Below, piece by piece: positions 3,469 through 46,412 of a stretch of 64,000 nt of DNA. The position numbers and the translations under genes are program-made. Numbering within the stretch: position 1 is the stretch's first letter; every line of letters begins with the position of its first letter. The notes beneath the pieces were generated by a model. The model searched no databases. It was not told where the DNA came from and saw only the letters and a program-made list of their open reading frames with translations. This stretch comes from a virus. Taxonomy: Duplodnaviria > Heunggongvirae > Uroviricota > Caudoviricetes. Location: IMG/VR virus record IMGVR_UViG_2706794662_000007, one strand, 5' to 3'.

Positions 3469-3828
3469 TCAACCTTTCTTCATTAACTCGCGTTTAATTT
3501 CATCGGTACGCATCGTGACATCGGCAGCAGTGATCGCCTCGTTAAGCTTCACGATGTCCTCGATTTCCTGCGGTGACTTCTCTGCCAGATGGAAAATAGC
3601 AGCACGAATCACATCAGAGCGGGTGAATTTCTCGAAGCGAGGGATGAACTTCATCATCTCCAGCAGTTCGAAGTATTCGTCCTCCAGTGACATTGTGCGG
3701 CTTTTAATTTTCTCTTTGCCACGAGTCGGGCGTCCCTGTGGTCTGACTGGTTGGCGCAAAGGAGTTGTGTTCTTAGCCGGTGCATCAGACTCTTTGCGCT
3801 TTGCTAGGTCACCCATTTTCATGGACAT
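3469..3828 (-). CDS. small partition partner candidate (ParG/ribbon-helix-helix-like DNA-binding protein)
   Basis: 119 aa, basic N-terminus, start overlaps parA stop (ATGA-type junction at 3828). Confidence 0.35.
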   Translation of the reverse strand: MSMKMGDLAKRKESDAPAKNTTPLRQPVRPQGRPTRGKEKIKSRTMSLEDEYFELLEMMKFIPRFEKFTRSDVIRAAIFHLAEKSPQEIEDIVKLNEAITAADVTMRTDEIKRELMKKG

Positions 3829-4496
3829 TATTCTTCTTCCTCCAGACTCAACAGATAATCTACAAATTCTTCAAACTCGGCTTCCGCCTTTTTGTCGCGC
3901 TCGCTACCGGTCATTTCAAAGATAGAACGACCAGACTCTTCCGCATCATCATAGACGTTGCGGTTATATAGATTGACTGGCGCAGACTCGATGCCAAACG
4001 TCTCAACAATCTCTTTAGCCGCCAGAATGCGAGACACTTGTGATGGCAAAGCCGGGCACTGGTTCATGACCGCGCGGACCTTCACTTTATCGTTTACATT
4101 GCGAACATTGTCGATAATAGGATCGATGTCACGTAAAGATTTCAAATCACGACGCTTAGGACGCAGCGGGATAATGATAACGTCAGCCATCAGCATCGCT
4201 TGTCGCTGAATTTCGGAGTCGAAGCCACCAGCATCTACCACTACAAACTCAGCTCTACCCTGAAGCGATTTTAGGTGCTTAATGATGTCATCCTGAACGT
4301 ATGCAAAAGGAATCAGCTCAAGGTCTTCGTTCTGTCGACGGTCTTCACACCAGCTCGTTGTCGTGCGCTGAATATCTATATCGGTAATATAAACCTTCTT
4401 CTTCTTTTTGACTTTCAGGCAAACGGCAATTTGCTGGGCAACGGTGGATTTGCCAGGCCCGCCCTTTGTGCCGCCAACCACAAAGATCTTGGTCAT
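3828..4496 (-). CDS. parA: ParA/ParF-type partition ATPase
   Basis: deviant Walker A GGTKGGPGKST at N-terminus; 222 aa. Confidence 0.8.
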   Translation of the reverse strand: MTKIFVVGGTKGGPGKSTVAQQIAVCLKVKKKKKVYITDIDIQRTTTSWCEDRRQNEDLELIPFAYVQDDIIKHLKSLQGRAEFVVVDAGGFDSEIQRQAMLMADVIIIPLRPKRRDLKSLRDIDPIIDNVRNVNDKVKVRAVMNQCPALPSQVSRILAAKEIVETFGIESAPVNLYNRNVYDDAEESGRSIFEMTGSERDKKAEAEFEEFVDYLLSLEEEE

Positions 4497-31062: not shown

Positions 31063-32319
31063 CTATCGAGAACCACCAAGAATAACACGATTTTTTACTG
31101 GATACCTACGATGTACTGGATAGCCCAATGCGTCTGCACTATGCTCAATGCCACCTGTCTTATCCATATCTCGTGTTCCAGGCTTGTAGATGACTTTTTC
31201 CAGTGAATCAATCAAATGCTTGCACTTCGGATCGATATACAGCCGGATATCTCCAGATGCGGACATCAGCATTCGGTTAACAGCATTAACACGATCCGCA
31301 ATTGGCGGGTGCTTTTTCGAATAATCGACACGTAAGAATCCCTTCTCTTTGAATATGTCTACGTCAGACTCCCCACGAGCATGTTGGCGATAAGCACCTG
31401 CCGGATCTGGAAATACCGTTACCTGTGATTTCCAGCGCCAGAAGCGTCTCTCAAGCTCATCACAAACTTCTGCCGTGTTAGAGGAAAAGAGCACCAATTC
31501 ATCAATTGCCCATAGCTCACCATTTGGCTGAGGTTGCAAAATTACTGAAGACATCGGGTCAATGTTGAAGTCCTGCCCTACCCATATAGGCAACCGAGGG
31601 TTGAACTGAAGCGGTTTTACATGCACGTTACGATCGAACGGGTAGTAAACGCGCCCGGACATGTTCTCAAAGCTCGCCAGGTACTCCTGAGCGAACGATT
31701 TCGGGTCCATATCGTTCTTAGCAGCTTCAATTTCCGCCGTAGGTACAAACGGAGAATCGGCAGTTACAAACTGCCAGCTCTTCCACTGTCCCTTTCTTTG
31801 CAGCTCTACGTTCTGGCCTATAGTCCACAGTTTGTGAAATTCCGAGAAGCCTTTTGGCGTACCAATGATCAGTGCACCGCCGCGTGTCGATGAAAGAGTA
31901 GGTCGTAACACCTTGTACCAGGTGTCAGCCTTCATATCCTGAAATTCATCAAGCACTACAAAATGCAACGCTACGCCGCGCAGAGTGTCAGGCTTATCAG
32001 CACCTTTGAGGGCGATCTCCGAACCGTTCTTCAACACGATTGTCATCGTGGTGTCGTTCTTTTTCCTAACCCACTTACGAGGCAGAACTTCCTGTAGATC
32101 GTCCCACAAAATCTGGCGAGCCATCTGGTAAGTAGGAGCGACATACCAGACTCTTTGCTTTTTTTCCTTTGCCGCCGCACGAATAATAGTGGAGATCGAC
32201 AACCGGGATTTTCCCCAGCGTCGACCAGCACAAACAACTTTAAATCGATGCGGAGACTGGAAGACTTTCATCTGTCCAGAATGCAGTTGCACAAGACTGA
32301 GCGAGGACGGGATTGCCAT
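31063..32319 (-). CDS. terminase large subunit
   Basis: Walker A CAGRRWGKS and Walker B VVLDEFQD; C-terminal nuclease-like acidic residues. Confidence 0.85.
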   Translation of the reverse strand: MAIPSSLSLVQLHSGQMKVFQSPHRFKVVCAGRRWGKSRLSISTIIRAAAKEKKQRVWYVAPTYQMARQILWDDLQEVLPRKWVRKKNDTTMTIVLKNGSEIALKGADKPDTLRGVALHFVVLDEFQDMKADTWYKVLRPTLSSTRGGALIIGTPKGFSEFHKLWTIGQNVELQRKGQWKSWQFVTADSPFVPTAEIEAAKNDMDPKSFAQEYLASFENMSGRVYYPFDRNVHVKPLQFNPRLPIWVGQDFNIDPMSSVILQPQPNGELWAIDELVLFSSNTAEVCDELERRFWRWKSQVTVFPDPAGAYRQHARGESDVDIFKEKGFLRVDYSKKHPPIADRVNAVNRMLMSASGDIRLYIDPKCKHLIDSLEKVIYKPGTRDMDKTGGIEHSADALGYPVHRRYPVKNRVILGGSR

Positions 32320-33423: not shown

Positions 33424-34323
33424 TTATGCCGGTAAAGCAATTTCTAACGGTTTATCCAAAGGTTGTTTGTCGAATGCCAGCAGTGGCAGCGTGTCAGGCA
33501 GTCGACGACCAAAGTCAGGGTTTCGGTACACACCATACAACGGAGACGTAAAGCTCAGGTTGTGAATGTCCTTGAGCAGCTTCACAATGCTGGCCTCGTC
33601 CACCAGACTGTCGGCAATGTCCTGAATCGTCGTGCCACGATTCCGCCCAGCTTTTGCCAGGGAACTGTTCTTGTGGTAGTCCGCCACCAGATCACGCAGT
33701 GCACGGCGACGACGAGACTCGCTCATTGCGAACAACTCTTTGACGATCGCCTCGTTATCACCAGGGTCGGAACGGAAATGGCGCTGGAATACACGCAGTG
33801 CACTTTCATAGCTCTTCGGTCGCTCAGGGCGGATGAACTTAAACCCTGCTTTCATGGCGAAGGGATTGTATTTGCTCATCGAGGACTGGATCTCAATGAT
33901 TGGCCGGTCATGCATCCTGCTAACCAGGTTAATCATTCGATAAGAGACGCCTACGCCACGATACTGAGTATCCACAACTGAGCGACTGATCACCGCAAAG
34001 TTGTTATTCACGTACCGACCCCAGTACTGGTTAGCTACGGTGGTATTAGTGGTTGGTTTCAACTTAGGAAACATGCGGTGGCGAGGTGCCAACAGTAGTT
34101 TCGGGTAAGCCATAACCACGACGCCCACCAGACGGTCATCAAGTTCGCAGCGATAGTAAGTTGGCGCGAAAGGTTTGCCGTCTGTTTTGTAGTGAAGCGA
34201 CTTAAGAGCGTGCCAGTCCTCTACAGTTCCCTTTGTGACAGTCATTCGCTCCAGAAAGTCCAGATGACGCGGAAACTCTTCAGGGCGGTAGCGTTTGATG
34301 ATGATATCTGCCATGTCGATCAC
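33424..34323 (-). CDS. GNAT-fold acyltransferase-like protein with ~130-aa C-terminal extension
   Basis: motif-A-like segment VISRSVVDTQYRGVGVSYRMINL. Confidence 0.45.
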   Translation of the reverse strand: MIDMADIIIKRYRPEEFPRHLDFLERMTVTKGTVEDWHALKSLHYKTDGKPFAPTYYRCELDDRLVGVVVMAYPKLLLAPRHRMFPKLKPTTNTTVANQYWGRYVNNNFAVISRSVVDTQYRGVGVSYRMINLVSRMHDRPIIEIQSSMSKYNPFAMKAGFKFIRPERPKSYESALRVFQRHFRSDPGDNEAIVKELFAMSESRRRRALRDLVADYHKNSSLAKAGRNRGTTIQDIADSLVDEASIVKLLKDIHNLSFTSPLYGVYRNPDFGRRLPDTLPLLAFDKQPLDKPLEIALPA

Positions 34324-34574
34324 CTGCGCTCGATATTGGCATTGATGAAATCCAGGCGAAGAGACTCCATCGCCCCTACCATGACATACGGGCGCCCGCC
34401 GTTATGCCAGCAATCAAGAACACTGCCGTCGTTGTTGATCATCAACAGCGCCAGGCTCTGGCTTTTTCCTTCTCTGGCGTGCTGAAGTGCTTCTTCCAGC
34501 AGGCGGATGACTTCCACGTTGTTGTTATCAGTCTCTTTCGATGGCTTCAGCTCTACGATCTTCAAATCAGGCAT
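34320..34574 (-). CDS. hypothetical protein, 84 aa
   Basis: ORF track; coupled between ATPase and GNAT-like genes. Confidence 0.4.
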   Translation of the reverse strand: MPDLKIVELKPSKETDNNNVEVIRLLEEALQHAREGKSQSLALLMINNDGSVLDCWHNGGRPYVMVGAMESLRLDFINANIERR

Positions 34575-35205
34575 ATTCCACCTTCACGCGTTCTTTGTAG
34601 TGCTTGGTGATCTGCATATCCGGGCGCAGCGCGTTCTTCAGGTCTTCGTGAGTCGTCGCCACCATTACCGTCGCACCAACCTTTCGAGCGGCACGCTGGA
34701 GGTTAGACGCCACAACCTGAGCGGTTACACGGTCTAGAACAGCGCCGAACTCGTCAGCAGCCCATACTTTAGCGCCTGACTCAATCAGTTTGGCAATCTT
34801 GAGACGATATTTCTGGCCGTCTGACATTTCAGAAGGCTTGCGAACAAACAGATATGCATCGTTCAGACCAGCCATAGATAACAACCCAAGCGCATCACTG
34901 GTCGTTTTGCCCAACTGATCGATGACGTTAACCTCATTATCGAAGGTAAAATCATCGATGGAGGCTACAGACAGCCCTTCATCCTTCATCTGTCGTTGCA
35001 ACTCGCGCAGCACAACGGATTTGCCGGAACCGGATTGGCCGGTGATGTACACCACATCGCCCTGCTTCACTTCCAGCTCCAGATTGTCGTAAAGCGTCCA
35101 CTCTTTTTCGTCCAGGCCAAGCCCGAACGACTCAGCGATTTCCAACGTGCGCGTGGTTTTATTTACGCGTGTCTGAAACGATACGTTGATGATGTATTTG
35201 CTCAT
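34567..35205 (-). CDS. stand-alone ABC-type ATPase (nucleotide-binding domain only)
   Basis: Walker A GQSGSGKS, signature-like MSDGQKYR, Walker B VWAADEFG, H-loop TTHE; no membrane partner nearby. Confidence 0.6.
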   Translation of the reverse strand: MSKYIINVSFQTRVNKTTRTLEIAESFGLGLDEKEWTLYDNLELEVKQGDVVYITGQSGSGKSVVLRELQRQMKDEGLSVASIDDFTFDNEVNVIDQLGKTTSDALGLLSMAGLNDAYLFVRKPSEMSDGQKYRLKIAKLIESGAKVWAADEFGAVLDRVTAQVVASNLQRAARKVGATVMVATTHEDLKNALRPDMQITKHYKERVKVEYA

Positions 35206-35870
35206 GCAGCCATCTCCCCGGAAGAGATTTTCTCCGCATATGCCACAAATGCGTCTACCCCGCTTTCTCCCGTCATTTCTTCCATGTGGGCAAGCAAATC
35301 ACCAACAACAATGGCAGAGCCAGCAGGAAGCGTTTTAAAGCCCAATACGTCGACAACACGTACTTCTTCCGCTGCAACTTCACGACTGATCTCGGTGTGT
35401 TCATCCTTCTGTCGTTTAGTTTCTTCGCCAAGATCGATAACTAGCGAGTCGGTGTCCATTTCTTCTGTCATACTGCCAACGAGAACATTCAACTCACGCT
35501 CTTCGAAGCCGAAAACCTCGATATCGTCCAGAACAAGCGACTCAAGCTCTTTCTGTAGCTTAATTGCATCGTAATCAATGCTGGCAAGTCGGTTATCTTC
35601 AAGGCGCTTCGCACGAACCTCGTCATCACTGAGATCATCGCGAACAATAACCGGTACACGCTCAAGTCCAGCAAAAATTGCAGCCTCACGACGGCCGTGG
35701 CCAGTAATAATTACGTCGTTCTTATCGACCGTAATTGGCTGGTCAAATCCGCGCTTTTTAATGGCTGCGGCCAGATCTCTGATCTGCTGTTCATCATGCT
35801 TTTTGGCATTCATCTCATAGGGAATAAGATCTGCCGGGTCGCGATATACGATTTCAAACTTTTTGGTCAT
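35202..35870 (-). CDS. ParB N-terminal (ParB/Srx fold) domain protein
   Basis: ParB box-like ITGHGRREAA; start taken at Met giving TAATG junction with upstream gene. Confidence 0.6.
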   Translation of the reverse strand: MTKKFEIVYRDPADLIPYEMNAKKHDEQQIRDLAAAIKKRGFDQPITVDKNDVIITGHGRREAAIFAGLERVPVIVRDDLSDDEVRAKRLEDNRLASIDYDAIKLQKELESLVLDDIEVFGFEERELNVLVGSMTEEMDTDSLVIDLGEETKRQKDEHTEISREVAAEEVRVVDVLGFKTLPAGSAIVVGDLLAHMEEMTGESGVDAFVAYAEKISSGEMAA

Positions 35871-36550
35871 TACATACGCTCCTTGTAGTAGTCGACCAGC
35901 CACACCAGAGCCTCACCAGCGTTCTCCATTTCATTACCGGTGTTAATAGCCTGCTCTTTGATGATGTTTTTTATGGTTTCTGCAACACGATCTGACGCAT
36001 CGAAAGTTACTTTGAAGCGCATGGTCTGATGTTCCGCCCCCACACGTTCGGTTTTCTCTCGTTTGTCGGTATCGACAGGCTCATCACTACCACGAGACAA
36101 CGCCTCCAGTGCTTCAAGGTCGATTGCCGCCTCTTTTGCTAAAACCATCGAGATTTCGTCGTCATACGGGGCGATTTCAGACAGTTGATAGTCAAGTTCT
36201 GACTGAATTTCTTCAATGAAGCGTTGCAATGCGATTTGGTCGTCTTCACCGTATCGCTCGTTGTCCACCAGTGACATCTGTTTAGCTACGACATCGCTAA
36301 TTTTGCCCACAGAAAGCACTGGAACCGTTGAAATTCCTTGCTCAATAGCGGCACGCCAGCGATGTTCGCCGCCGAGGATTTCAAAAAATCCATCTTCAAG
36401 TTCACGAGCCAAAATTGGCTTAAAAAAGCCCAATTTTTCGATAGAACCTTTCAGTTTTTCGAAATTCTGCGCACCAACCGAATTGGTGTTCCAGGTATTC
36501 GGGCGAAGGTTGGCAACATCAACCTGCAAAATCGTGATTTTTACGTCCAT
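35870..36550 (-). CDS. ParB N-terminal domain protein, paralogous neighbour
   Basis: ParB box II-like ILGGEHRWRAA; ATG at 36550 preferred over GTG at 36568. Confidence 0.6.
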   Translation of the reverse strand: MDVKITILQVDVANLRPNTWNTNSVGAQNFEKLKGSIEKLGFFKPILARELEDGFFEILGGEHRWRAAIEQGISTVPVLSVGKISDVVAKQMSLVDNERYGEDDQIALQRFIEEIQSELDYQLSEIAPYDDEISMVLAKEAAIDLEALEALSRGSDEPVDTDKREKTERVGAEHQTMRFKVTFDASDRVAETIKNIIKEQAINTGNEMENAGEALVWLVDYYKERM

Positions 36551-36632
36551 TTTATTGCTACAATCCACTAAGTAATCACTTACTTATTATAATAGCCAAA
36601 TAACATACAAAAGGCACTAAGGAAAGAGGTTT

Positions 36633-38192
36633 ATGACTGTTCGGATTGTATCTAACGCAGTAAATGCGCTTATTTCTGGCGCAGATGACAAGGTAAAGCA
36701 ACTGGTGCAGCAAATGTTGAGCTACGAAGTCGAGGCTGGCGACTGGAAGGGCACAAGCACAATGTTCAACTGGAGCAAAAACTCGTTCCCTGCTGGCTTT
36801 GCCAAGCCCGTGGCGGCTAATTTGAACAAGGCGGGCATCAAATGTGTTCATATCCGCAAAGACAAAGCCCCGGCGCTTGGTAAACCAAATCCGGCGGTTA
36901 ACCCATTCCCATACAATCCTGATTATGCGTATCAGGATCAGACTGTGGAAACACTGGTTCGAGAGGGAATGATGATTGCGCAGATCGCTACTGGTGGCGG
37001 GAAATCTAACGTTGCCTGCAAAGCAGCTGCACGTATCGGTCGAATGACATTATTTTTAACAACCCGCTCTGTTCTGATGTTTCAAATGGCCGAAAACTTC
37101 CAGAGATCCATCGACTACCGCGCCAAAAATGGCGAACCGTGGTTAAAAGACCAAAAGGTTGGAGTCATTGGCTCGGGTGAGTTCCAGGTATCACGACATA
37201 TCAACGTCGCTACAGTTCAAACTCTTGCAAGTTTCCTCGAAGAACCACCACGCGATGCAACACCAGATAAGAAAAGCTACCACCTCAAACGTCGGGAGTT
37301 GGTGAAACGCTTCCTTTCAAGTGTCTCTCTTCTTATTCTGGAAGAGGCGCATGAGTCTTCAGGCTCAAATTTCTATGACATCGCCAGATTATGTGTGAAC
37401 GCAGACTATCGTCTGGCGCTTACAGCCACGCCGTTCATGAAGGATTCGACGGAAGCCAACATGCGCCTGATGGCGGTGGCCGGGCGAATTGAAATTAAAG
37501 TCACAGAAAAGTATCTGATTGATCGAGGCATTCTGGCAAAGCCGTACTTCCTTTATCATAAAGTTGCCTACAAGCCAGACGAGGCCAGAATCAAGGCCGA
37601 ACTTGCCAACAAACACCTCAATTTTAGAGTTGGTATGAGCACCGCCTACCAAAAGGCTTATCAGTTGGGGATCGTGTATAATTTGGGACGTAACGAGGCC
37701 ATTGTGCGCGAAGCATTGCTCTATAAGCAACATTCTCTCAATTGTATGACTCTGGTTCGCCTTAAACGCCACGGGCAAATCCTGATGGAAATGATGAAAG
37801 AGTCCGGCCTTAGAGTTGACTTCATCTATGGGGAATCTAACCAGGCGACAAGGCAAGCAAAGCTGAACAGTTTAGCGTCTGGAGAAATAGATGTTTTAAT
37901 AGGCTCGACTATTCTGGATGTCGGTGTTGATGTGCCAAGCGTTGGTGCGGTCATTCTTGCTGGTGGTGGGAAAGCAGAAGTTGAAATGAGGCAGCGTGTC
38001 GGTCGTGGCTTACGAGCCAAGAAGAATCAGGCAAACGTGTGTTTTATCACTGATTTCATTGACATTAGCAACAAATACCTGTTGTCTCACTCTTATGAGC
38101 GAAAACACATCATCGACACCACACCTGGCTTTGCAGAAGGTGTATTGCCTATTGATGGCGCATTCGATTTTGGAGTTCTGAAACGAGATTAG
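36633..38192 (+). CDS. superfamily-2 DEAD/DEAH-box helicase
   Basis: motif I ATGGGKS, motif II LILEEAHE, motif III TATP, motif VI QRVGRGLR. Confidence 0.7.
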   Translation: MTVRIVSNAVNALISGADDKVKQLVQQMLSYEVEAGDWKGTSTMFNWSKNSFPAGFAKPVAANLNKAGIKCVHIRKDKAPALGKPNPAVNPFPYNPDYAYQDQTVETLVREGMMIAQIATGGGKSNVACKAAARIGRMTLFLTTRSVLMFQMAENFQRSIDYRAKNGEPWLKDQKVGVIGSGEFQVSRHINVATVQTLASFLEEPPRDATPDKKSYHLKRRELVKRFLSSVSLLILEEAHESSGSNFYDIARLCVNADYRLALTATPFMKDSTEANMRLMAVAGRIEIKVTEKYLIDRGILAKPYFLYHKVAYKPDEARIKAELANKHLNFRVGMSTAYQKAYQLGIVYNLGRNEAIVREALLYKQHSLNCMTLVRLKRHGQILMEMMKESGLRVDFIYGESNQATRQAKLNSLASGEIDVLIGSTILDVGVDVPSVGAVILAGGGKAEVEMRQRVGRGLRAKKNQANVCFITDFIDISNKYLLSHSYERKHIIDTTPGFAEGVLPIDGAFDFGVLKRD

Positions 38193-38654: not shown

Positions 38655-39248
38655 ATGAAACGTTCGTTACTTCTTGCTTGTATATACCTCTCGTCATTTT
38701 CCGCCAATGCGTTGTCAGATATCGTCTCCGACATGCAAAAAACGTACAGCATGTATACTTCTGAAGACGTACTAAAATACGAATCACGAGGTCTGATTCA
38801 ACCAGTCTGGTTCAGATTCTCAGATAACGCAGAAGAAACAATACTTAATGCAGGAAAAGAAAGATTACGGTTGCAAATTAACGGAACCGCTGTACCAGAA
38901 AACGTTAATGTAAGCTCTGACGAAGCCATGAAGCCATCTGGAATTGTTTTGGAAGTTCAAGACGGCACACTTTACTGTGATGAAATGGCTACAACAGGTT
39001 GCCAAGTAAACATTAGGGTTGGCAATGAAGAGCCTATCGTTACTTACGCCAAGGCTGAAGGGAATACAAGTGGAAAGGTATTGTTTATCGATGAAAATAC
39101 CTCAAAACGTATCGTTCGTGACATACAGAAAACAGCGAACTCTAAATCCGTCGATAAAAAAATCTATGTTGAGGTTCCCTTCTTTGTCGTTGGTAACAAA
39201 GAATTTAAATTTGGGTTGCTGAAAACACCTCTAAGAGTATCAGAATGA
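38655..39248 (+). CDS. secreted/periplasmic protein with signal peptide
   Basis: N-terminus MKRSLLLACIYLSSFSANA with AxA cleavage site. Confidence 0.5.
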   Translation: MKRSLLLACIYLSSFSANALSDIVSDMQKTYSMYTSEDVLKYESRGLIQPVWFRFSDNAEETILNAGKERLRLQINGTAVPENVNVSSDEAMKPSGIVLEVQDGTLYCDEMATTGCQVNIRVGNEEPIVTYAKAEGNTSGKVLFIDENTSKRIVRDIQKTANSKSVDKKIYVEVPFFVVGNKEFKFGLLKTPLRVSE

Positions 39249-39766
39249 GAACATTGGACATCACCTACGGCATACCGGCTGAAGTATGGCCGCGAGACTA
39301 CGAACATGCTGAACGTACCTTGCTCTTCTGGCGGAGTGCAAAATTTCCTGTAAGAGTCACTCTCGAAGACGGCCAAGTGTTTTGCATGTATGTCTACGGG
39401 CTATTGAGCGCAAGAAATAAGCTGAACCTCACACCAGATCCGCTTAGCAACACAAATCGTATAAGGCTCCCTCTTGAGCGCATTAGCACAATTGAGTCGG
39501 GCATAGAAGAGGTTGACACTTCATTCACAGGTCGACTAACGCTAAACAATGAACAGATGGTTAATCAGCCATCACGTCGTGACTTTTTTAAGATATGTCG
39601 TCAGGCTTACCAAAACGGCAAATCTATAAGGGTCTACATGGCAGACGGTCGCGAAATTGAGGGAACGTCAGATGGCGTTGACGCCTGTCTAGTCACACTT
39701 AAGTTGGAAGACGGTAGAAAAATACTTATTTTCTTCGATTGGGTTGAACGAATCCTTCCGTTTTAA
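39245..39766 (+). CDS. hypothetical protein, 173 aa
   Basis: ATGA overlap with preceding secreted-protein gene. Confidence 0.45.
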   Translation: MRTLDITYGIPAEVWPRDYEHAERTLLFWRSAKFPVRVTLEDGQVFCMYVYGLLSARNKLNLTPDPLSNTNRIRLPLERISTIESGIEEVDTSFTGRLTLNNEQMVNQPSRRDFFKICRQAYQNGKSIRVYMADGREIEGTSDGVDACLVTLKLEDGRKILIFFDWVERILPF

Positions 39767-40063: not shown

Positions 40064-40714
40064 ATGGCTAACATTATCATTTCTAAAAAGTCCATCATTG
40101 AAGCTGCATCTATTGTATCCGACGAACTGCGCGAAAAAGCAGATCTGGCAACTCAAACATATAACGAACATTATAAAAATGGTACGCACACTAAAGCAGA
40201 CAAAGCAAATATGCAAGCTGCGACCACTAAACTTGCTTACTTCATCAACAACGTCGTAAACGCTGTAGAAGACGAAAAATTATGCTCTGTTTTCTACTAT
40301 GCGATTAAAGCAAGCAAACAAGCGCCAGAAGTATTTTTTCGTGACGCTATGACTAATAGTTATTCACTGGAAAAACTGGTTTATCTGGTTAAATCAATTA
40401 AAGCTGGAAAATGTGTTTATTCCGTCGCTGATATGTCTGGATCTCGTGTATTCGCTTTAATCGATATGATTAACGACGAGATCGACACGTTCACGAATGG
40501 CGCTGTTTTCGATTTAATGAATGAAGCCAAAAAAGCGTGTGAAATTAAATTGGACGCTGGCTATACTCAAGCTAACCAGCTAATCAATCTTTGCGAACGT
40601 CTCGGACTTGTTGAGAAAGTCAAAGGAATGGGAAGCGCCAAAGCTGGTACACAGCAATATCGCTTTATCAAGAATGATTTCTACAATTATCTAGCTGACG
40701 CTTTCAAAGCGTAA
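40064..40714 (+). CDS. hypothetical protein, 216 aa, AT-rich cargo gene
   Basis: ORF track; own promoter and downstream hairpin. Confidence 0.5.
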   Translation: MANIIISKKSIIEAASIVSDELREKADLATQTYNEHYKNGTHTKADKANMQAATTKLAYFINNVVNAVEDEKLCSVFYYAIKASKQAPEVFFRDAMTNSYSLEKLVYLVKSIKAGKCVYSVADMSGSRVFALIDMINDEIDTFTNGAVFDLMNEAKKACEIKLDAGYTQANQLINLCERLGLVEKVKGMGSAKAGTQQYRFIKNDFYNYLADAFKA

Positions 40715-40763
40715 TTAATGGAATCAAGCGCCCACTATGGGCGCTTTAAAGGAGCTTTAAAAA

Positions 40764-40967
40764 ATGGTCAGCTATGACAAGATCCGCGCGGAATATCGCG
40801 CAAAGTATCGCGCTTATAAACTAGAATTAATCAATGATTTAATCGCGCAACGCGACCAATTAAATTTTACGTTTTCTGATTTGCTTAACAGCAAACGAGA
40901 TTGCAAGCGTAAACGTGAATACTTACGTTTAAGCGCATTAATCGGAAAACTTCATAATTCTATTTAA
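40764..40967 (+). CDS. small hypothetical protein, 67 aa
   Basis: ORF with SD AAAGGAG upstream. Confidence 0.35.
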   Translation: MVSYDKIRAEYRAKYRAYKLELINDLIAQRDQLNFTFSDLLNSKRDCKRKREYLRLSALIGKLHNSI

Positions 40968-44622: not shown

Positions 44623-44841
44623 TTAATCTTGGTCGTCCGGGAACTCGCTGTGTACCGCGCCCACCAGCTCCCGCTTTTCATCTTCACTCAGCAGGTGCCA
44701 GATATCCTTCCCTTTGGGCGATTCCCCTTCTGCCGGGACGAACGACCACAACTTGCGGTACAACTCCGGCCCCACTGCATCCAGACACTCAGCCAGGGAA
44801 TCCACGCCCCACACCTCAACCGTCACAGGCATCTTAATCAT
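44623..44841 (-). CDS. hypothetical protein, 72 aa
   Basis: ORF track. Confidence 0.35.
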   Translation of the reverse strand: MIKMPVTVEVWGVDSLAECLDAVGPELYRKLWSFVPAEGESPKGKDIWHLLSEDEKRELVGAVHSEFPDDQD

Positions 44842-45226
44842 CTCTTCATCCTCACTTCGTTTCTATAACGTCTAAATATGCTGTTTACTTGTTGGTGTTA
44901 TTATCGCAATAAGATAAAGGCGAAAAAGGATTTTATGTCGGGAAAGCCAGGCTGGGCAGTGAATATCCGGGAACGACACGAGAGCCAGTATTTACGATAT
45001 TCTGCTCTACGCGCGCCGCGGGGCTGGTGGGTAGAATAATCCTCTCCCCGAAAACCTACTGAAATCGATTGTGACCCGCTGGCTGTCTGGCACAATTACG
45101 CTGTATCTGGCATTCAGAGGGAATCCAGCGGTAAGCAAGTCAGCCTGCACGTGAGCGCCTCTCTTCTTCCCGCACATTACAGGTGGGTAGCTGCAACTCT
45201 CTCTCTCTCGCTATACCGGTACGCCG

Positions 45227-45362
45227 CCGTTCCAGAACCGGCATCGAGCCTTTTCCCGAAATCCACACAGGCAACTCGACCGTTTCCCTGAAAATCCCCA
45301 GCCGTTCCCCCGAAGGCAACCCAGCCGTTTCTGTAGCTGGATGCAACCTTTTCCCTGTATGG
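45227..45362. repeat. iteron-like array: six direct repeats of CCGTT(T)CC-type units at ~22-bp spacing
   Basis: copies near 45227, 45249, 45280, 45302, 45325, 45347 read directly; inside ORF-poor region. Confidence 0.5.
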
Positions 45363-46412
45363 ACCGAAGGCTGACCGTAGGGGGTGTTACGGGGGATAAA
45401 ATCAGGAGTTGAATAAATACGAAAAAGGAGGCGACCCCCCTCCTTCCCTCTCCACTTATACATACCTGGCTTCTTCGCTATACATGTTGTGTTTTATCTG
45501 TCTCAACCTCTCTATAGGCGTTAATGCTCACTCCTTCCAGAATGTTCTATACGGCGACTATTTCTGTTGGTGAATTGGGTGTGTTGTTTTCTCTGTCGGT
45601 GTATGTGGTTTCGTTAGTTTTGCGGTGGTTCTTCTATGGGGGTGTTCTCGTCGTTTTGGTGATTGTTCTTCTCCGTGTATGGAGTAATGGCAGGTGGGCG
45701 ATTGCTTTCGTTATTGTGTTTGAGTTGTTTGTCTGGAGTGTGTGAAGGCTTTTGTAGTTATTCGTGTATTGGGTAATGGCGTTTCCCGTGATTGTTATGT
45801 TTCGTGTCTTTTGGGATTGAGAGAAACCTTGCGGTTACAGGCTTCGTTAGGGTTTCAGCGGTTCAGGTGTTTCTTCGCTGTTTGGGTAATGGCGTGTCGT
45901 GGGTATCGCGCGTATGAATGTTTTCGGATTGCCTGTGAAAGTTAGGTTGGTTGTCCGGTAGCCTGGGGAGAAGAGGTGGGTCTTTTCGGTAGCCTGCCAT
46001 AAAGAGGTTGGTTGTTTTGGGTAATGGCATATGTGTTATTTGGTTGTTTTGTTATGCCTGAAAATAAGTTGTTTATATGGTTGTGTAACGCAACGGGAGC
46101 GATTTTGAGCGTGTGTTTTTGTTGGTAGTGTGTTGAGTCGTCTGTGGTGAAATTTGGACGCTGTGGCGCTATCTGCTGCGTAGAATTACGGGTATAAGAA
46201 GTGATGTGTGATAACGTCAATTTTTTAGACCAAATCGGGAGAAAGCGTTGATGTTTCGTTGATCTGTTATTTAGTTGTTTTCTTATTGGTATAAACAACC
46301 ATAACCTATTGATATTTAATGATGTGATTGCTGGTATGGGAGGGTAGTAGTGGCGATCAACGGGTTCTTATAGAAAAGAATCAAATTGTGACCGCCATTA
46401 TCAACGGTTTGA

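What the first reader, a model, noticed from the sequence alone, without database searches (positions are those of the whole stretch)
45227..45362. Iteron-like direct repeat array in a 1.5-kb ORF-poor region
Six units of the form (C/A)GCCGTT(T)CC recur at about 22-bp intervals (45227, 45249, 45280, 45302, 45325, 45347), which is two helical turns and typical of iteron origins. An ATCCACACA segment at about 45261 loosely resembles a DnaA box. ORFs predicted here overlap the repeats and look spurious. This is a candidate replication origin or incompatibility determinant.
Basis: seen in the sequence. Interest (0 to 1): 0.65.

Follow-up and report, generated by a model that had tools for sequence, protein, structure and literature searches.

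The report
Phased repeat array in phage-plasmid
Six short repeats spaced two DNA turns apart are a real, conserved protein-docking array in the only large gene-free stretch of an SSU5/pHCM2-type phage-plasmid; they are not the plasmid's replication origin, which lies about 35 kb away, and their role (possibly the lytic-growth origin) is untested.

Summary
CCKTTYC occurs at exactly 45227, 45249, 45280, 45302, 45325 and 45347, all on the + strand. It is the only such cluster in the 108-kb element, and simulations never gave more than 3 per 130 bp. The window is an SSU5/pHCM2-type phage-plasmid, identical to Shigella sonnei plasmids. The array lies in a 1.57-kb non-coding region (44842-46412) kept in Escherichia, Salmonella, Enterobacter, Citrobacter, Cronobacter and Klebsiella relatives. 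Between clades the cores are 75-90% identical and the spacers 35-55%. The spacing is locked at 22-31-22-22-22 or 22-22-22-42 bp, and whole units are gained or lost. This is the signature of a helically phased DNA-binding array.

It is not the plasmid origin. A RepFIB-type RepA with 15-bp iterons (TATGCTGTCAGCGGT), a DnaA box and GATC sites lies about 35 kb away. pHCM2 has a different RepA (50% identity) and different iterons but the same array. The "DnaA box" is not conserved, and the overlapping ORFs are spurious.

My best guess (about 0.35) is the protein-loading part of a lytic-cycle origin or control region. A conserved rightward promoter fires through the array into a 0.8-kb G-rich stretch. 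A repressor or roadblock operator array is the main rival.

The parts
44842..46412 (.). Conserved 1.57-kb non-coding region of the phage-plasmid, the only large gene-free stretch apart from the RepA iteron region and a tRNA cluster
   Evidence: No CDS in RefSeq relatives. Kept in position and sequence in six or more genera. No codon periodicity in three clades. No Rfam match.
45225..45357 (+). The finding: six direct CCKTTYC(C) cores starting at 45227, 45249, 45280, 45302, 45325 and 45347 (spacing 22, 31, 22, 23, 22 bp)
   Evidence: non-random. (spacing 22-31-22-22-22 or 22-22-22-42 conserved across clades; variants that lack whole units). (cores 75-90% identical between clades, spacers 35-55%).
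45069..45096 (+). Candidate rightward sigma-70 promoter P_R: -35 TTGTGA (45069-45074), 16-bp spacer with TG at 45088-45089, -10 CACAAT (45091-45096). Predicted start about 45104, pointing into the array.
   Evidence: PWM scan finds it at the same aligned position in three clades. The hexamers are conserved and the spacer varies. In the pHCM2 sub-clade this block is replaced by an insert with a rightward 80-aa ORF. No transcript-start data; inferred.
44900..44908 (-). Candidate extended -10 (TGCGATAAT on the - strand) of the leftward promoter for the gene starting at 44841; divergent from P_R
   Evidence: The block GTGTTATTATCGCAATAAGA is nearly invariant in 31 representatives. Read from the sequence; inferred.
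45380..45395 (+). Two G5 runs (GGGGGTGTTACGGGGG) just downstream of the array, followed by an AT-rich patch of about 30 bp (45396-45427)
   Evidence: Conserved as GGGA(C/T)GTTACGGGGGAT in all clades.
45421..45446 (-). Purine/pyrimidine hairpin. On the - strand it is terminator-like in the Escherichia and Klebsiella clades (stem followed by U-rich tail).
   Evidence: terminator scan. (11-bp stem). (a hairpin of -8 to -17 kcal/mol is present in every clade; the tail is not U-rich in the pHCM2 clade).
45500..46300 (+). G+T-rich stretch (+ strand G 31%, C 13%, T 40%) with TG(G/A)GTAATGGC boxes at 45682, 45771, 45884 and 46019
   Evidence: strongest skew anomaly of the element, conserved in all clades. 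(boxes). (the - sense RNA is almost unstructured).
45956..46017 (+). Two tandem 31-bp units, CGGTAGCCTG-N11-GAGGT(G/T)GGT
   Evidence: D7. Among the most conserved segments of the region.
46044..46067 (+). Dyad TTGTTTTG-N8-GAAAATAA, a member of a motif family scattered through the element
   Evidence: 7 matches against 0.67 expected.
46275..46298 (+). Dyad TTGTTTTC-N8-TAAACAA, same family
   Evidence: Conserved.
46192..46220 (-). Possible weak leftward promoter: -35 TTGACG (46220-46215), -10 TTATAC (46197-46192). It would transcribe the C/A-rich sense towards the hairpin.
   Evidence: Hexamers conserved and spacer variable, but the -10 lacks the final T and only the Klebsiella version passes the PWM threshold. 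Weak.

Best explanation
Shown: the six CCKTTYC(C) cores are helically phased binding sites on double-stranded DNA for a sequence-specific protein, in the single large non-coding region of an SSU5/pHCM2-type phage-plasmid. They are not the plasmid (prophage-state) origin and are not read by RepA.

Inferred, and my committed guess: the array is the protein-loading module of a lytic-cycle cis-acting region, most likely the origin used by the phage's own replication proteins (DnaB-like helicase, primase, Pol III alpha, RNase HI, RecA-like recombinase). In this model the region is silent in the lysogen. After induction a conserved rightward promoter (45069-45096) transcribes through the array, the two G5 runs, an AT-rich patch and a hairpin, and then into 0.8 kb whose non-template strand is G-rich. 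Monomers of an unidentified protein, phage-encoded or a conserved host factor, sit every 22 bp on one DNA face and wrap the DNA. This would help to open the adjacent AT-rich patch or to hold the transcript as an RNA-DNA hybrid. Phage RNase HI could then trim that hybrid into a primer. The model is analogous to T4 oriE and ColE1 priming and to the lambda ori layout of repeats, AT-rich tract and palindrome (comparisons from memory).
For: Protein-binding DNA array:
- Exact positions and non-randomness.
- Cores 75-90% identical between clades against 35-55% for spacers.
- Spacing 22-31-22-22-22 in the Escherichia and pHCM2 clades and 22-22-22-42 in Klebsiella, i.e. always close to whole helical turns.
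- Natural variants differ by whole units: L064 lacks one and L026 lacks two.
- Not coding.
- No RNA family match and no fold signal.

Not the plasmid origin:
- RepA and its TATGCTGTCAGCGGT iterons are elsewhere.
- The replicon is swapped in pHCM2 while the array is unchanged.
- Yersinia pMT1-type plasmids keep the dnaE homologue but have no match to this region.

Lytic origin or control region:
- It is the only repeat-rich non-coding region in an element that encodes a full phage replication and recombination set with no known origin for it.
- A conserved promoter-like site points into the array. The pHCM2 sub-clade has a rightward ORF at the same place.
- The G5 runs, AT patch, hairpin and G-skewed 0.8 kb are conserved in that order.
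- ORFs annotated over the region in phage Cyrano are at background in lysogen RNA-seq (PMC9928086 supplement).
Against: - No experiment or dataset here shows replication starting at this site.
- No initiator gene is adjacent, and none was identified. The unknown protein next to the DnaB-like helicase has no family or PDB match.
- Only 8-9 bp per 22-bp unit are conserved, far less than in classical iterons.
- There is no conserved DnaA box.
- The AT-rich patch is short (about 30 bp).
- Whole-element GC skew has no inflection here. It is uniformly negative except for the local G-rich block.
- The promoter is a prediction of about 8 bits, and its block is replaced in the pHCM2 sub-clade.
- G content of the downstream stretch (about 31%) is below what R-loop predictors usually require (my recollection: 40% or more).
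- The same anatomy fits an operator or roadblock array equally well.
Confidence: 0.35

Rival explanations
1. Operator or roadblock array. A phage repressor-like protein binds the six direct repeats cooperatively, 120-250 bp downstream of the rightward promoter. It either blocks or silences that non-coding transcription unit, or insulates the leftward early operon. The function is regulation, not replication.
For: The phasing, core-versus-spacer conservation and unit-number variation fit this as well as they fit an origin. The array lies between a divergent promoter pair and a hairpin. The region is transcriptionally silent in the lysogen. There is a precedent from memory: the P2 C repressor binds two 8-bp direct repeats 22 bp centre to centre.
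Against: No promoter elements overlap the array. Six sites spread over 130 bp and far from any -10/-35 is unusual for an operator. The master repressor's own promoter region has different repeats (TATATCATA), and the element's scattered TTGTTTTC dyads are a different motif.
Confidence: 0.25
2. Packaging recognition site (pac or cosB-like). The small terminase subunit oligomer binds the phased repeats and wraps the DNA to start packaging.
For: Terminase small subunits bind repeated, phased sites. The heptamer CGTTTCC inside the cores is also the core of the lambda cosB R sites (from memory, a lead only).
Against: The terminase genes are 12-13 kb away, with TerL at 31063-32319. TerL is of the Terminase_6N/Terminase_3 type, not the lambda GpA type, and the putative small subunit has no Nu1 or any other match. 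Public SSU5 and Cyrano records appear, by my extrapolation from the match coordinates, to start near the terminase genes, not here. Orientation and spacing differ from cosB.
Confidence: 0.08
3. RNA-level repeats. On the - strand the cores read GGRAAMGG (GGA motifs). They could act in a long 5' leader or sponge RNA that binds CsrA or another RNA-binding protein. Alternatively they act on the + strand as CCGUUUCC motifs in the rightward transcript.
For: Most - strand cores contain GGA, and CAGGGAAA(A/C)GG resembles a CsrB segment (from memory). The region is flanked by candidate promoters on both strands.
Against: Strict 22-bp spacing in whole helical turns is a DNA property. There is no Rfam match even at E<=10. 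Fold z-scores are -1.27 and +0.44. The consensus folds I computed showed no consistent conserved helix on either strand; covariation was not formally tested. GGA is lost in unit 5 and in Klebsiella unit 6. Expression is at background in the lysogen. The - strand hairpin lies upstream of the array, so a leftward transcript would end before it.
Confidence: 0.07
4. Partition centromere for the element's ParA/RHH pair or for its ParB_N proteins.
For: The parA-like and RHH-like operon (3469-4496) has no repeat array next to it, so its centromere is unassigned.
Against: The array is 41 kb from parA and 9 kb from the ParB_N genes. The dyad upstream of parA is GAAAACAAGTTGTTTC, a different motif. pMT1-type plasmids lack the region. 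RHH centromeres are normally contiguous short repeats.
Confidence: 0.06
5. One reading: iterons of the plasmid replicon or an incompatibility or copy-control determinant that titrates RepA.
For: The form is iteron-like, with direct repeats at 22 bp. CAGCCGT in some units is 6/7 identical to the 3' part of the RepA iteron, CAGCGGT (read by eye).
Against: The RepA iterons are TATGCTGTCAGCGGT, flank repA outside the window and do not occur in the array. pHCM2 has a 50%-identical RepA and ATCCACTGTAGAGAG-type iterons but the identical array. The conserved core TTTCC is not part of the iteron.
Confidence: 0.02
6. Not a functional element: a neutral relic of a duplicated sequence, or part of a real protein-coding gene.
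For: Some annotations call ORFs here (CYRAN_104, PhiR41_1).
Against: Variable sites fall 21/15/13 by codon position (p=0.35) in the 107-aa ORF, against a strong third-position excess in all five flanking genes. Frameshifting indels separate the clades. Cores are conserved and spacers are not, across six or more genera.
Confidence: 0.03

Closest known systems
Iterons of theta-replicating plasmids (R6K gamma ori 7 x 22 bp, RK2 oriV 17-mers at 22-23 bp, P1 oriR/incA, F ori2); recalled from memory
   Same: Direct repeats in one orientation at about 22 bp, several copies, copy number varies between relatives, located in non-coding DNA.
   Different: Only 8-9 bp per unit are conserved, against 17-22 bp. 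There is no adjacent rep gene and no conserved DnaA box. This element's own RepA uses unrelated iterons 35 kb away.
Phage origins that combine a promoter, a non-coding transcript and a repeat array: T4 oriE (12-nt iterons, RNA-E primer, RepEB) and lambda ori (four repeats, AT-rich tract, palindrome); from memory
   Same: The order is predicted promoter, repeat array, AT-rich patch, then hairpin. The host phage has a T4-like replication and recombination gene set, including RNase HI and a RecA-like protein.
   Different: No initiator is known, there are no data on initiation, repeat length and spacing differ, and lambda ori lies inside gene O.
P2 C-repressor operator (two 8-bp direct repeats 22 bp centre to centre); from memory
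   Same: Short non-palindromic direct repeats spaced two helical turns apart.
   Different: P2 has two sites that flank a -10 box. Here there are six sites with no promoter among them.
Lambda cosB R sites (core CGTTTCC); from memory
   Same: The heptamer CGTTTCC occurs in units 3 and 5 and in many homologous units.
   Different: Lambda has three sites in mixed orientation next to Nu1. Here there are six direct sites 12 kb from a non-lambda-type terminase.

Membership tests
Iteron-type plasmid replicon (Rep_3/RepFIB RepA + iterons) | Several direct repeats in one orientation at about 22-bp periodicity | tested here: met
   Six cores at 22, 31, 22, 23, 22 bp. The phasing is conserved in three clades.
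Iteron-type plasmid replicon (Rep_3/RepFIB RepA + iterons) | Repeat sequence matches the iterons bound by the element's own Rep protein, next to the rep gene | tested here: not met
   RepA (Rep3_N) lies about 35 kb away and is flanked by TATGCTGTCAGCGGT repeats. The only 3-mismatch hit in the region is at 45848, not in the array. pHCM2 has a different RepA and different iterons but the same array.
Iteron-type plasmid replicon (Rep_3/RepFIB RepA + iterons) | Conserved DnaA box and AT-rich unwinding element beside the repeats | tested here: not met
   The best DnaA-like 9-mers have 2 mismatches. The one at 45259 is absent or different in other clades. There is only a 30-bp AT-rich patch.
Iteron-type plasmid replicon (Rep_3/RepFIB RepA + iterons) | Supports autonomous replication or exerts incompatibility when cloned | not testable with these tools
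   Needs cloning.
Transcription-activated phage lytic origin (T4 oriE / lambda ori type) | Promoter directing transcription into or through the repeat array | tested here: inconclusive
   A conserved promoter-like site lies at 45069-45096 (+), with conserved hexamers and a variable spacer. There are no transcript-start data, and the block is replaced in the pHCM2 sub-clade.
Transcription-activated phage lytic origin (T4 oriE / lambda ori type) | Replication initiates here during lytic growth, and a cognate initiator binds the repeats | not testable with these tools
   No marker-frequency or binding data are available, and no initiator was identified.
Structured non-coding RNA or protein-sponge RNA (Rfam families, CsrB-like) | Match to a covariance model, or a stable conserved secondary structure | tested here: not met
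   No Rfam hit at gathering score. The only hit at E<=10 is a 19-bit chance match. Fold z-scores are -1.27 and +0.44. The consensus folds showed no consistent conserved helix.
Protein-coding gene | Third-codon-position excess of substitutions and a conserved reading frame | tested here: not met
   Variable sites by codon position are 21/15/13 (p=0.35) and 30/27/25 (p=0.79) for the two ORFs, against p of 3e-6 to 9e-3 for five flanking genes. No periodicity anywhere in the region in three clades.
cos/pac packaging site | Lies next to or within the terminase genes, and virion DNA ends map there | tested here: not met
   TerL is at 31063-32319, 12-13 kb away. Mapping of the DNA ends is not testable here.
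Plasmid partition centromere | Adjacent to the par operon and retained in plasmid-only relatives | tested here: not met
   parA is at 3828-4496 with a different dyad upstream. 63 Yersinia plasmids keep dnaE but none matches the region.

The most novel reading that the evidence does not exclude
The whole 1.57-kb region is a previously undescribed lytic origin of the widespread SSU5/pHCM2 phage-plasmid family. A repressible promoter would drive a non-coding G-rich transcript through a six-site phased protein array. That transcript would form an RNA-DNA hybrid in the strongly G-skewed 0.8 kb and prime replication by the phage's own DnaB/primase/Pol III alpha/RNase HI set. This would be a second origin, mechanistically different from the RepA-iteron origin used in the plasmid state.
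Probability: 0.2. Interest if true: 0.65.

Novelty: new variant of a known kind. Interest (0 to 1): 0.45.

Why it matters
SSU5/pHCM2-type phage-plasmids are common in clinical Escherichia, Shigella, Salmonella, Klebsiella and Enterobacter. More than 800 plasmid records match this region, and these elements carry resistance genes (PMC9600943). How they switch from RepA-driven plasmid replication to lytic replication is not described in the papers I could search. A family-wide, gene-free region with four conserved repeat families is the obvious place to look. It gives a concrete, clonable target (45225-45357 and its flanks) for finding the lytic origin or switch. It also corrects a likely annotation trap: the array looks like iterons but is not the replicon used for Inc typing.

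Tried and rejected
- **RepA iterons or incompatibility.** Rejected by locating the real replicon and by the replicon swap in pHCM2.
- **DnaA box.** Rejected by conservation.
- **Coding.** Rejected by the codon-periodicity test with positive controls. The flanking small proteins and the overlapping ORFs gave only PHROG families of unknown function.
- **Known RNA.** Rfam at gathering score and at E<=10 gave nothing. Single-sequence and consensus folds were uninformative.
- **GC-skew origin prediction.** Skew is uniformly negative because nearly all genes are on one strand, with no inflection.
- **Literature.** Six full-text searches and four papers gave no description of this region. Only Cyrano lysogen expression values were useful. 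One search was wasted by allowing 2 of 3 terms.
- **Collection scans.** The 18-mer scan of genome contigs gave mostly chance hits in unrelated genomes and chromosomal genes. IMG/VR gave about 50 usable homologues.
- **Candidate binding proteins.** The putative small terminase and the unknown protein beside the helicase have no Pfam, NCBIfam or PDB match.
- **Promoter and terminator consensus scan.** The region does not exceed shuffles, so the promoter calls rest on conservation pattern only.
- **Lambda cosB resemblance (CGTTTCC).** Kept only as a lead.

Full report
**What the window is.** The 2-kb stretch around the finding is 100% identical to Shigella sonnei plasmids of about 108 kb. It is 92-98% identical to Escherichia phages CMS-2020a, PhiR41_1 and Cyrano, with a weaker match to Salmonella phage SSU5. 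The window is therefore part of an SSU5/pHCM2-type phage-plasmid. RefSeq annotation of the identical plasmid shows leftward genes on both sides and no CDS between window positions 44842 and 46412. The other annotation gap I checked holds four tRNA genes, and the RepA flanks are filled with iterons.

**Observation check.** CC[GT]TT[TC]C occurs on the + strand at 45227, 45249, 45280, 45302, 45325 and 45347, exactly as reported, and nowhere on the - strand of the region.
- Units 2 and 6 are CCTTTTCC, and spacing is 22, 31, 22, 23, 22 bp.
- The reconstructed 108-kb element has 36 other scattered hits and no other cluster.
- Simulated sequences never gave more than 3 hits per 130 bp, whether they used the composition of the whole element or the local composition. 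The observed value is 6.
- Tandem Repeats Finder misses the array because only the cores are alike.

**Not coding.** Variable sites in three independent clades show no three-base periodicity anywhere in the 1.57 kb.
- With the same test, all five flanking genes show a strong third-position excess (p from 3e-6 to 9e-3).
- The two ORFs that some records annotate over the region do not (21/15/13, p=0.35, and 30/27/25, p=0.79).
- Clades differ by indels that are not multiples of three.
- The ORFs have no Pfam family.

**Conservation and phasing.** blastn finds the region in 838 plasmid records from Klebsiella, Escherichia, Enterobacter, Salmonella, Citrobacter, Cronobacter, Shigella and others. 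It is always between the same kinds of small leftward genes and is mostly unannotated. I collected 48 distinct full-length copies, reduced to 31 representatives at 97% identity. Three results point to a protein-binding array on double-stranded DNA.
- Between clades the eight-base cores are 75-90% identical, while the spacers are 35-55% identical.
- Core-to-core spacing is 22-31-22-22-22 in the Escherichia and pHCM2/Enterobacter/Citrobacter clades and 22-22-22-42 in the Klebsiella clade. Every distance is close to 2, 3 or 4 helical turns, although the spacer sequences have diverged.
- Natural variants differ by whole units. L064 lacks one, L026 lacks two, and the Cronobacter copy keeps about three.

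**Not the plasmid origin or an incompatibility determinant.** The first ORF of the identical plasmid record is a 364-aa Rep3_N (RepFIB-type) initiator.
- It is preceded by a DnaA box, a cluster of GATC sites and five copies of TATGCTGTCAGCGGT, and followed by about a dozen more copies. This is a P1-like oriR/incA layout.
- It lies outside the window, about 35 kb from the finding.
- The iteron does not occur in the array.
- pHCM2 has a RepA only 50% identical, with ATCCACTGTAGAGAG-type iterons, yet carries the same array with the same spacing.
- Sixty-three Yersinia plasmids carry the element's dnaE homologue, but no Yersinia record matches this region. The region is therefore dispensable for plasmid maintenance in that lineage.
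- GC skew over the element is uniformly negative and shows no origin-type inflection.

**Anatomy of the surroundings, left to right.**
- A nearly invariant block at 44880-44915 contains an extended -10 (TGCGATAAT on the - strand) for the leftward gene that starts at 44841 (inferred).
- A conserved 160-bp block follows, which includes a Chi octamer at 45023.
- A promoter-like site on the + strand follows: TTGTGA, 16 bp, TG-n-CACAAT, at 45069-45096. It is found at the same aligned position in three clades, with conserved hexamers and a variable spacer. It points into the array. In the pHCM2 sub-clade this block is replaced by a roughly 290-bp insert with a rightward 80-aa ORF, so rightward expression towards the array is plausible there too.
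- About 110 poorly conserved bp come next, and then the array (45225-45357).
- Two G5 runs lie at 45380-45395, followed by an AT-rich patch of about 30 bp.
- A purine/pyrimidine hairpin at 45421-45446 is present in every clade. On the - strand it looks like a terminator in two of the three clades.
- Then come 0.8 kb in which the + strand is 31% G, 13% C and 40% T. This is the strongest skew anomaly of the element and is conserved in all clades. It contains 4-6 TG(G/A)GTAATGGC boxes, two almost invariant 31-bp tandem units, and two TTGTTTTC-N8-GAAAACAA-like dyads.
- The - sense RNA of this stretch would be nearly unstructured and C-rich, which is Rho-loading-site-like (interpretation from general knowledge).

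**Expression.** In the LF82 (Cyrano) lysogen transcriptomes, the two ORFs annotated over the region (CYRAN_103 and CYRAN_104) are at the floor or background. The neighbouring CYRAN_102 is expressed (PMC9928086 supplement). The region is therefore silent in lysogeny, and leftward read-through stops before it. I found no data for the lytic cycle.

**RNA readings.**
- There is no Rfam family at gathering score, and only one 19-bit chance hit at E<=10.
- Fold energies of the array on either strand are no better than shuffles.
- Consensus folding gave no consistent helix.
- The strict spacing in whole helical turns argues for a DNA-level function.

**Most likely mechanism and rivals.** It is well supported (about 0.8) that this is a phased array of sites for a sequence-specific DNA-binding protein and that it is independent of RepA. 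What the complex does is inferred.
- **Lytic-cycle origin or control region (0.35), which I favour.** The element encodes a complete phage replication and recombination set with no assigned origin: DnaB-like helicase, primase, Pol III alpha, ligase, RNase HI, 5'-3' exonuclease, RecA-like and SbcCD-like proteins. This is its only repeat-rich non-coding region. The order of predicted promoter, phased repeats, G runs, AT patch, hairpin and G-rich non-template stretch resembles transcription-activated or RNA-primed origins (T4 oriE, ColE1, lambda ori; from memory).
- **Operator or roadblock array for a repressor-like protein (0.25).** This fits the same anatomy and has a precedent in the P2 C operator (8-bp direct repeats 22 bp apart; from memory).
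- **Weaker rivals.** These are packaging recognition (0.08; terminase 12 kb away and not lambda-type), an RNA motif (0.07), a centromere (0.06; parA is 41 kb away with a different dyad), RepA iterons (0.02) and non-function (0.03).

**Comparison and novelty.** In form the array works like iterons. It fails the membership test for the plasmid iteron replicon: there is no cognate Rep, the sequence is not the RepA iteron, there is no DnaA box, and the conserved core is only 8-9 bp. I found no description of the region in the searchable literature or in annotations. I rate it a new variant of a known kind (a phased protein-binding repeat array) with unknown partner and function. It is of moderate interest because the family is clinically widespread and its lytic replication and switch are uncharted.

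**Limits.** All promoter, terminator and R-loop statements are sequence inferences. The consensus promoter/terminator scan of the region does not exceed shuffles. No binding protein was identified. Several comparisons to known systems rest on memory and are marked as such.

Noticed in passing
window 45500-46300: An 0.8-kb non-coding stretch has extreme strand asymmetry (+ strand G 31%, C 13%, T 40%; GC skew +0.42). It is the strongest anomaly in the 108-kb element and is conserved in all clades. It carries 4-6 TG(G/A)GTAATGGC boxes (45682, 45771, 45884, 46019). The - sense RNA would be nearly unstructured and C-rich, like a Rho loading site.
   Followed up: partly
window 45956-46017: Two tandem 31-bp units, CGGTAGCCTG-N11-GAGGT(G/T)GGT, are among the most conserved bases of the region across genera. 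Function unknown.
   Followed up: partly
window 44019, 44504, 46044, 46275; also 4539, 42352, 46955, 60547: A dyad family TTGTTTTC-N8-GAAAACAA gives 7 matches against 0.67 expected. TTGTTTTC occurs 24 times on + against 7 on - in the element. The dyads sit about 20 nt upstream of the start codons of many small leftward genes and upstream of parA. They may be operators of a global regulator or 5'-UTR hairpins, and a FljA-like repressor gene is present.
   Followed up: partly
window 45023-45030: A Chi octamer GCTGGTGG lies inside a conserved non-coding block between the two divergent promoter-like sites. It is conserved in most clades.
   Followed up: no
outside the window: L004 1-1700 and L003 24800-25108 (NZ_CP045933.1 positions 1-1700 and 107800-108107): This is the true plasmid replicon: RepFIB-type RepA flanked by about 17 TATGCTGTCAGCGGT iterons, a DnaA box and a GATC cluster (P1 oriR/incA-like). 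pHCM2 has a 50%-identical RepA with different iterons, so the replicon has been exchanged within the family.
   Followed up: yes
window 3469-4496 (- strand): A ParA/MipZ-type ATPase (222 aa) is followed by a 119-aa protein whose sequence looks ribbon-helix-helix. No repeat array lies nearby, so the centromere is unassigned.
   Followed up: partly
window 33424-36568 (- strand): A four-gene cluster encodes two ParB_N-domain proteins and two ABC-type ATPases, divergent from a DEAD/DEAH helicase at 36633-38192. It may be a DNA-modification or defence-type module rather than a partition system.
   Followed up: no
window 39245-39766 (+ strand): A full-length Flag1_repress (FljA-like, E=1e-68) protein is encoded by the phage-plasmid.
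   Followed up: no
L008 1563-2115 (pHCM2; aligns between window 44915 and about 45100): The pHCM2/Kluyvera sub-clade has a roughly 290-bp insertion with an 80-aa rightward ORF. It replaces the block that holds the candidate rightward promoter.
   Followed up: partly
L004 6501-7574 and neighbours (outside the window): The element encodes a RecA-like recombinase in addition to SbcCD-like proteins, Pol III alpha, a DnaB-like helicase, primase, ligase, RNase HI, NrdAB, ThyA, DHFR, MetRS and four tRNAs. This is a T4-like replication and recombination toolkit.
   Followed up: no
Cyrano record OV696614.1, CYRAN_43 (40268-40822): In published LF82 lysogen RNA-seq this 'hypothetical protein' is about 700-fold above the prophage background, far above the repressor. 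I did not check whether it lies in this window.
   Followed up: no
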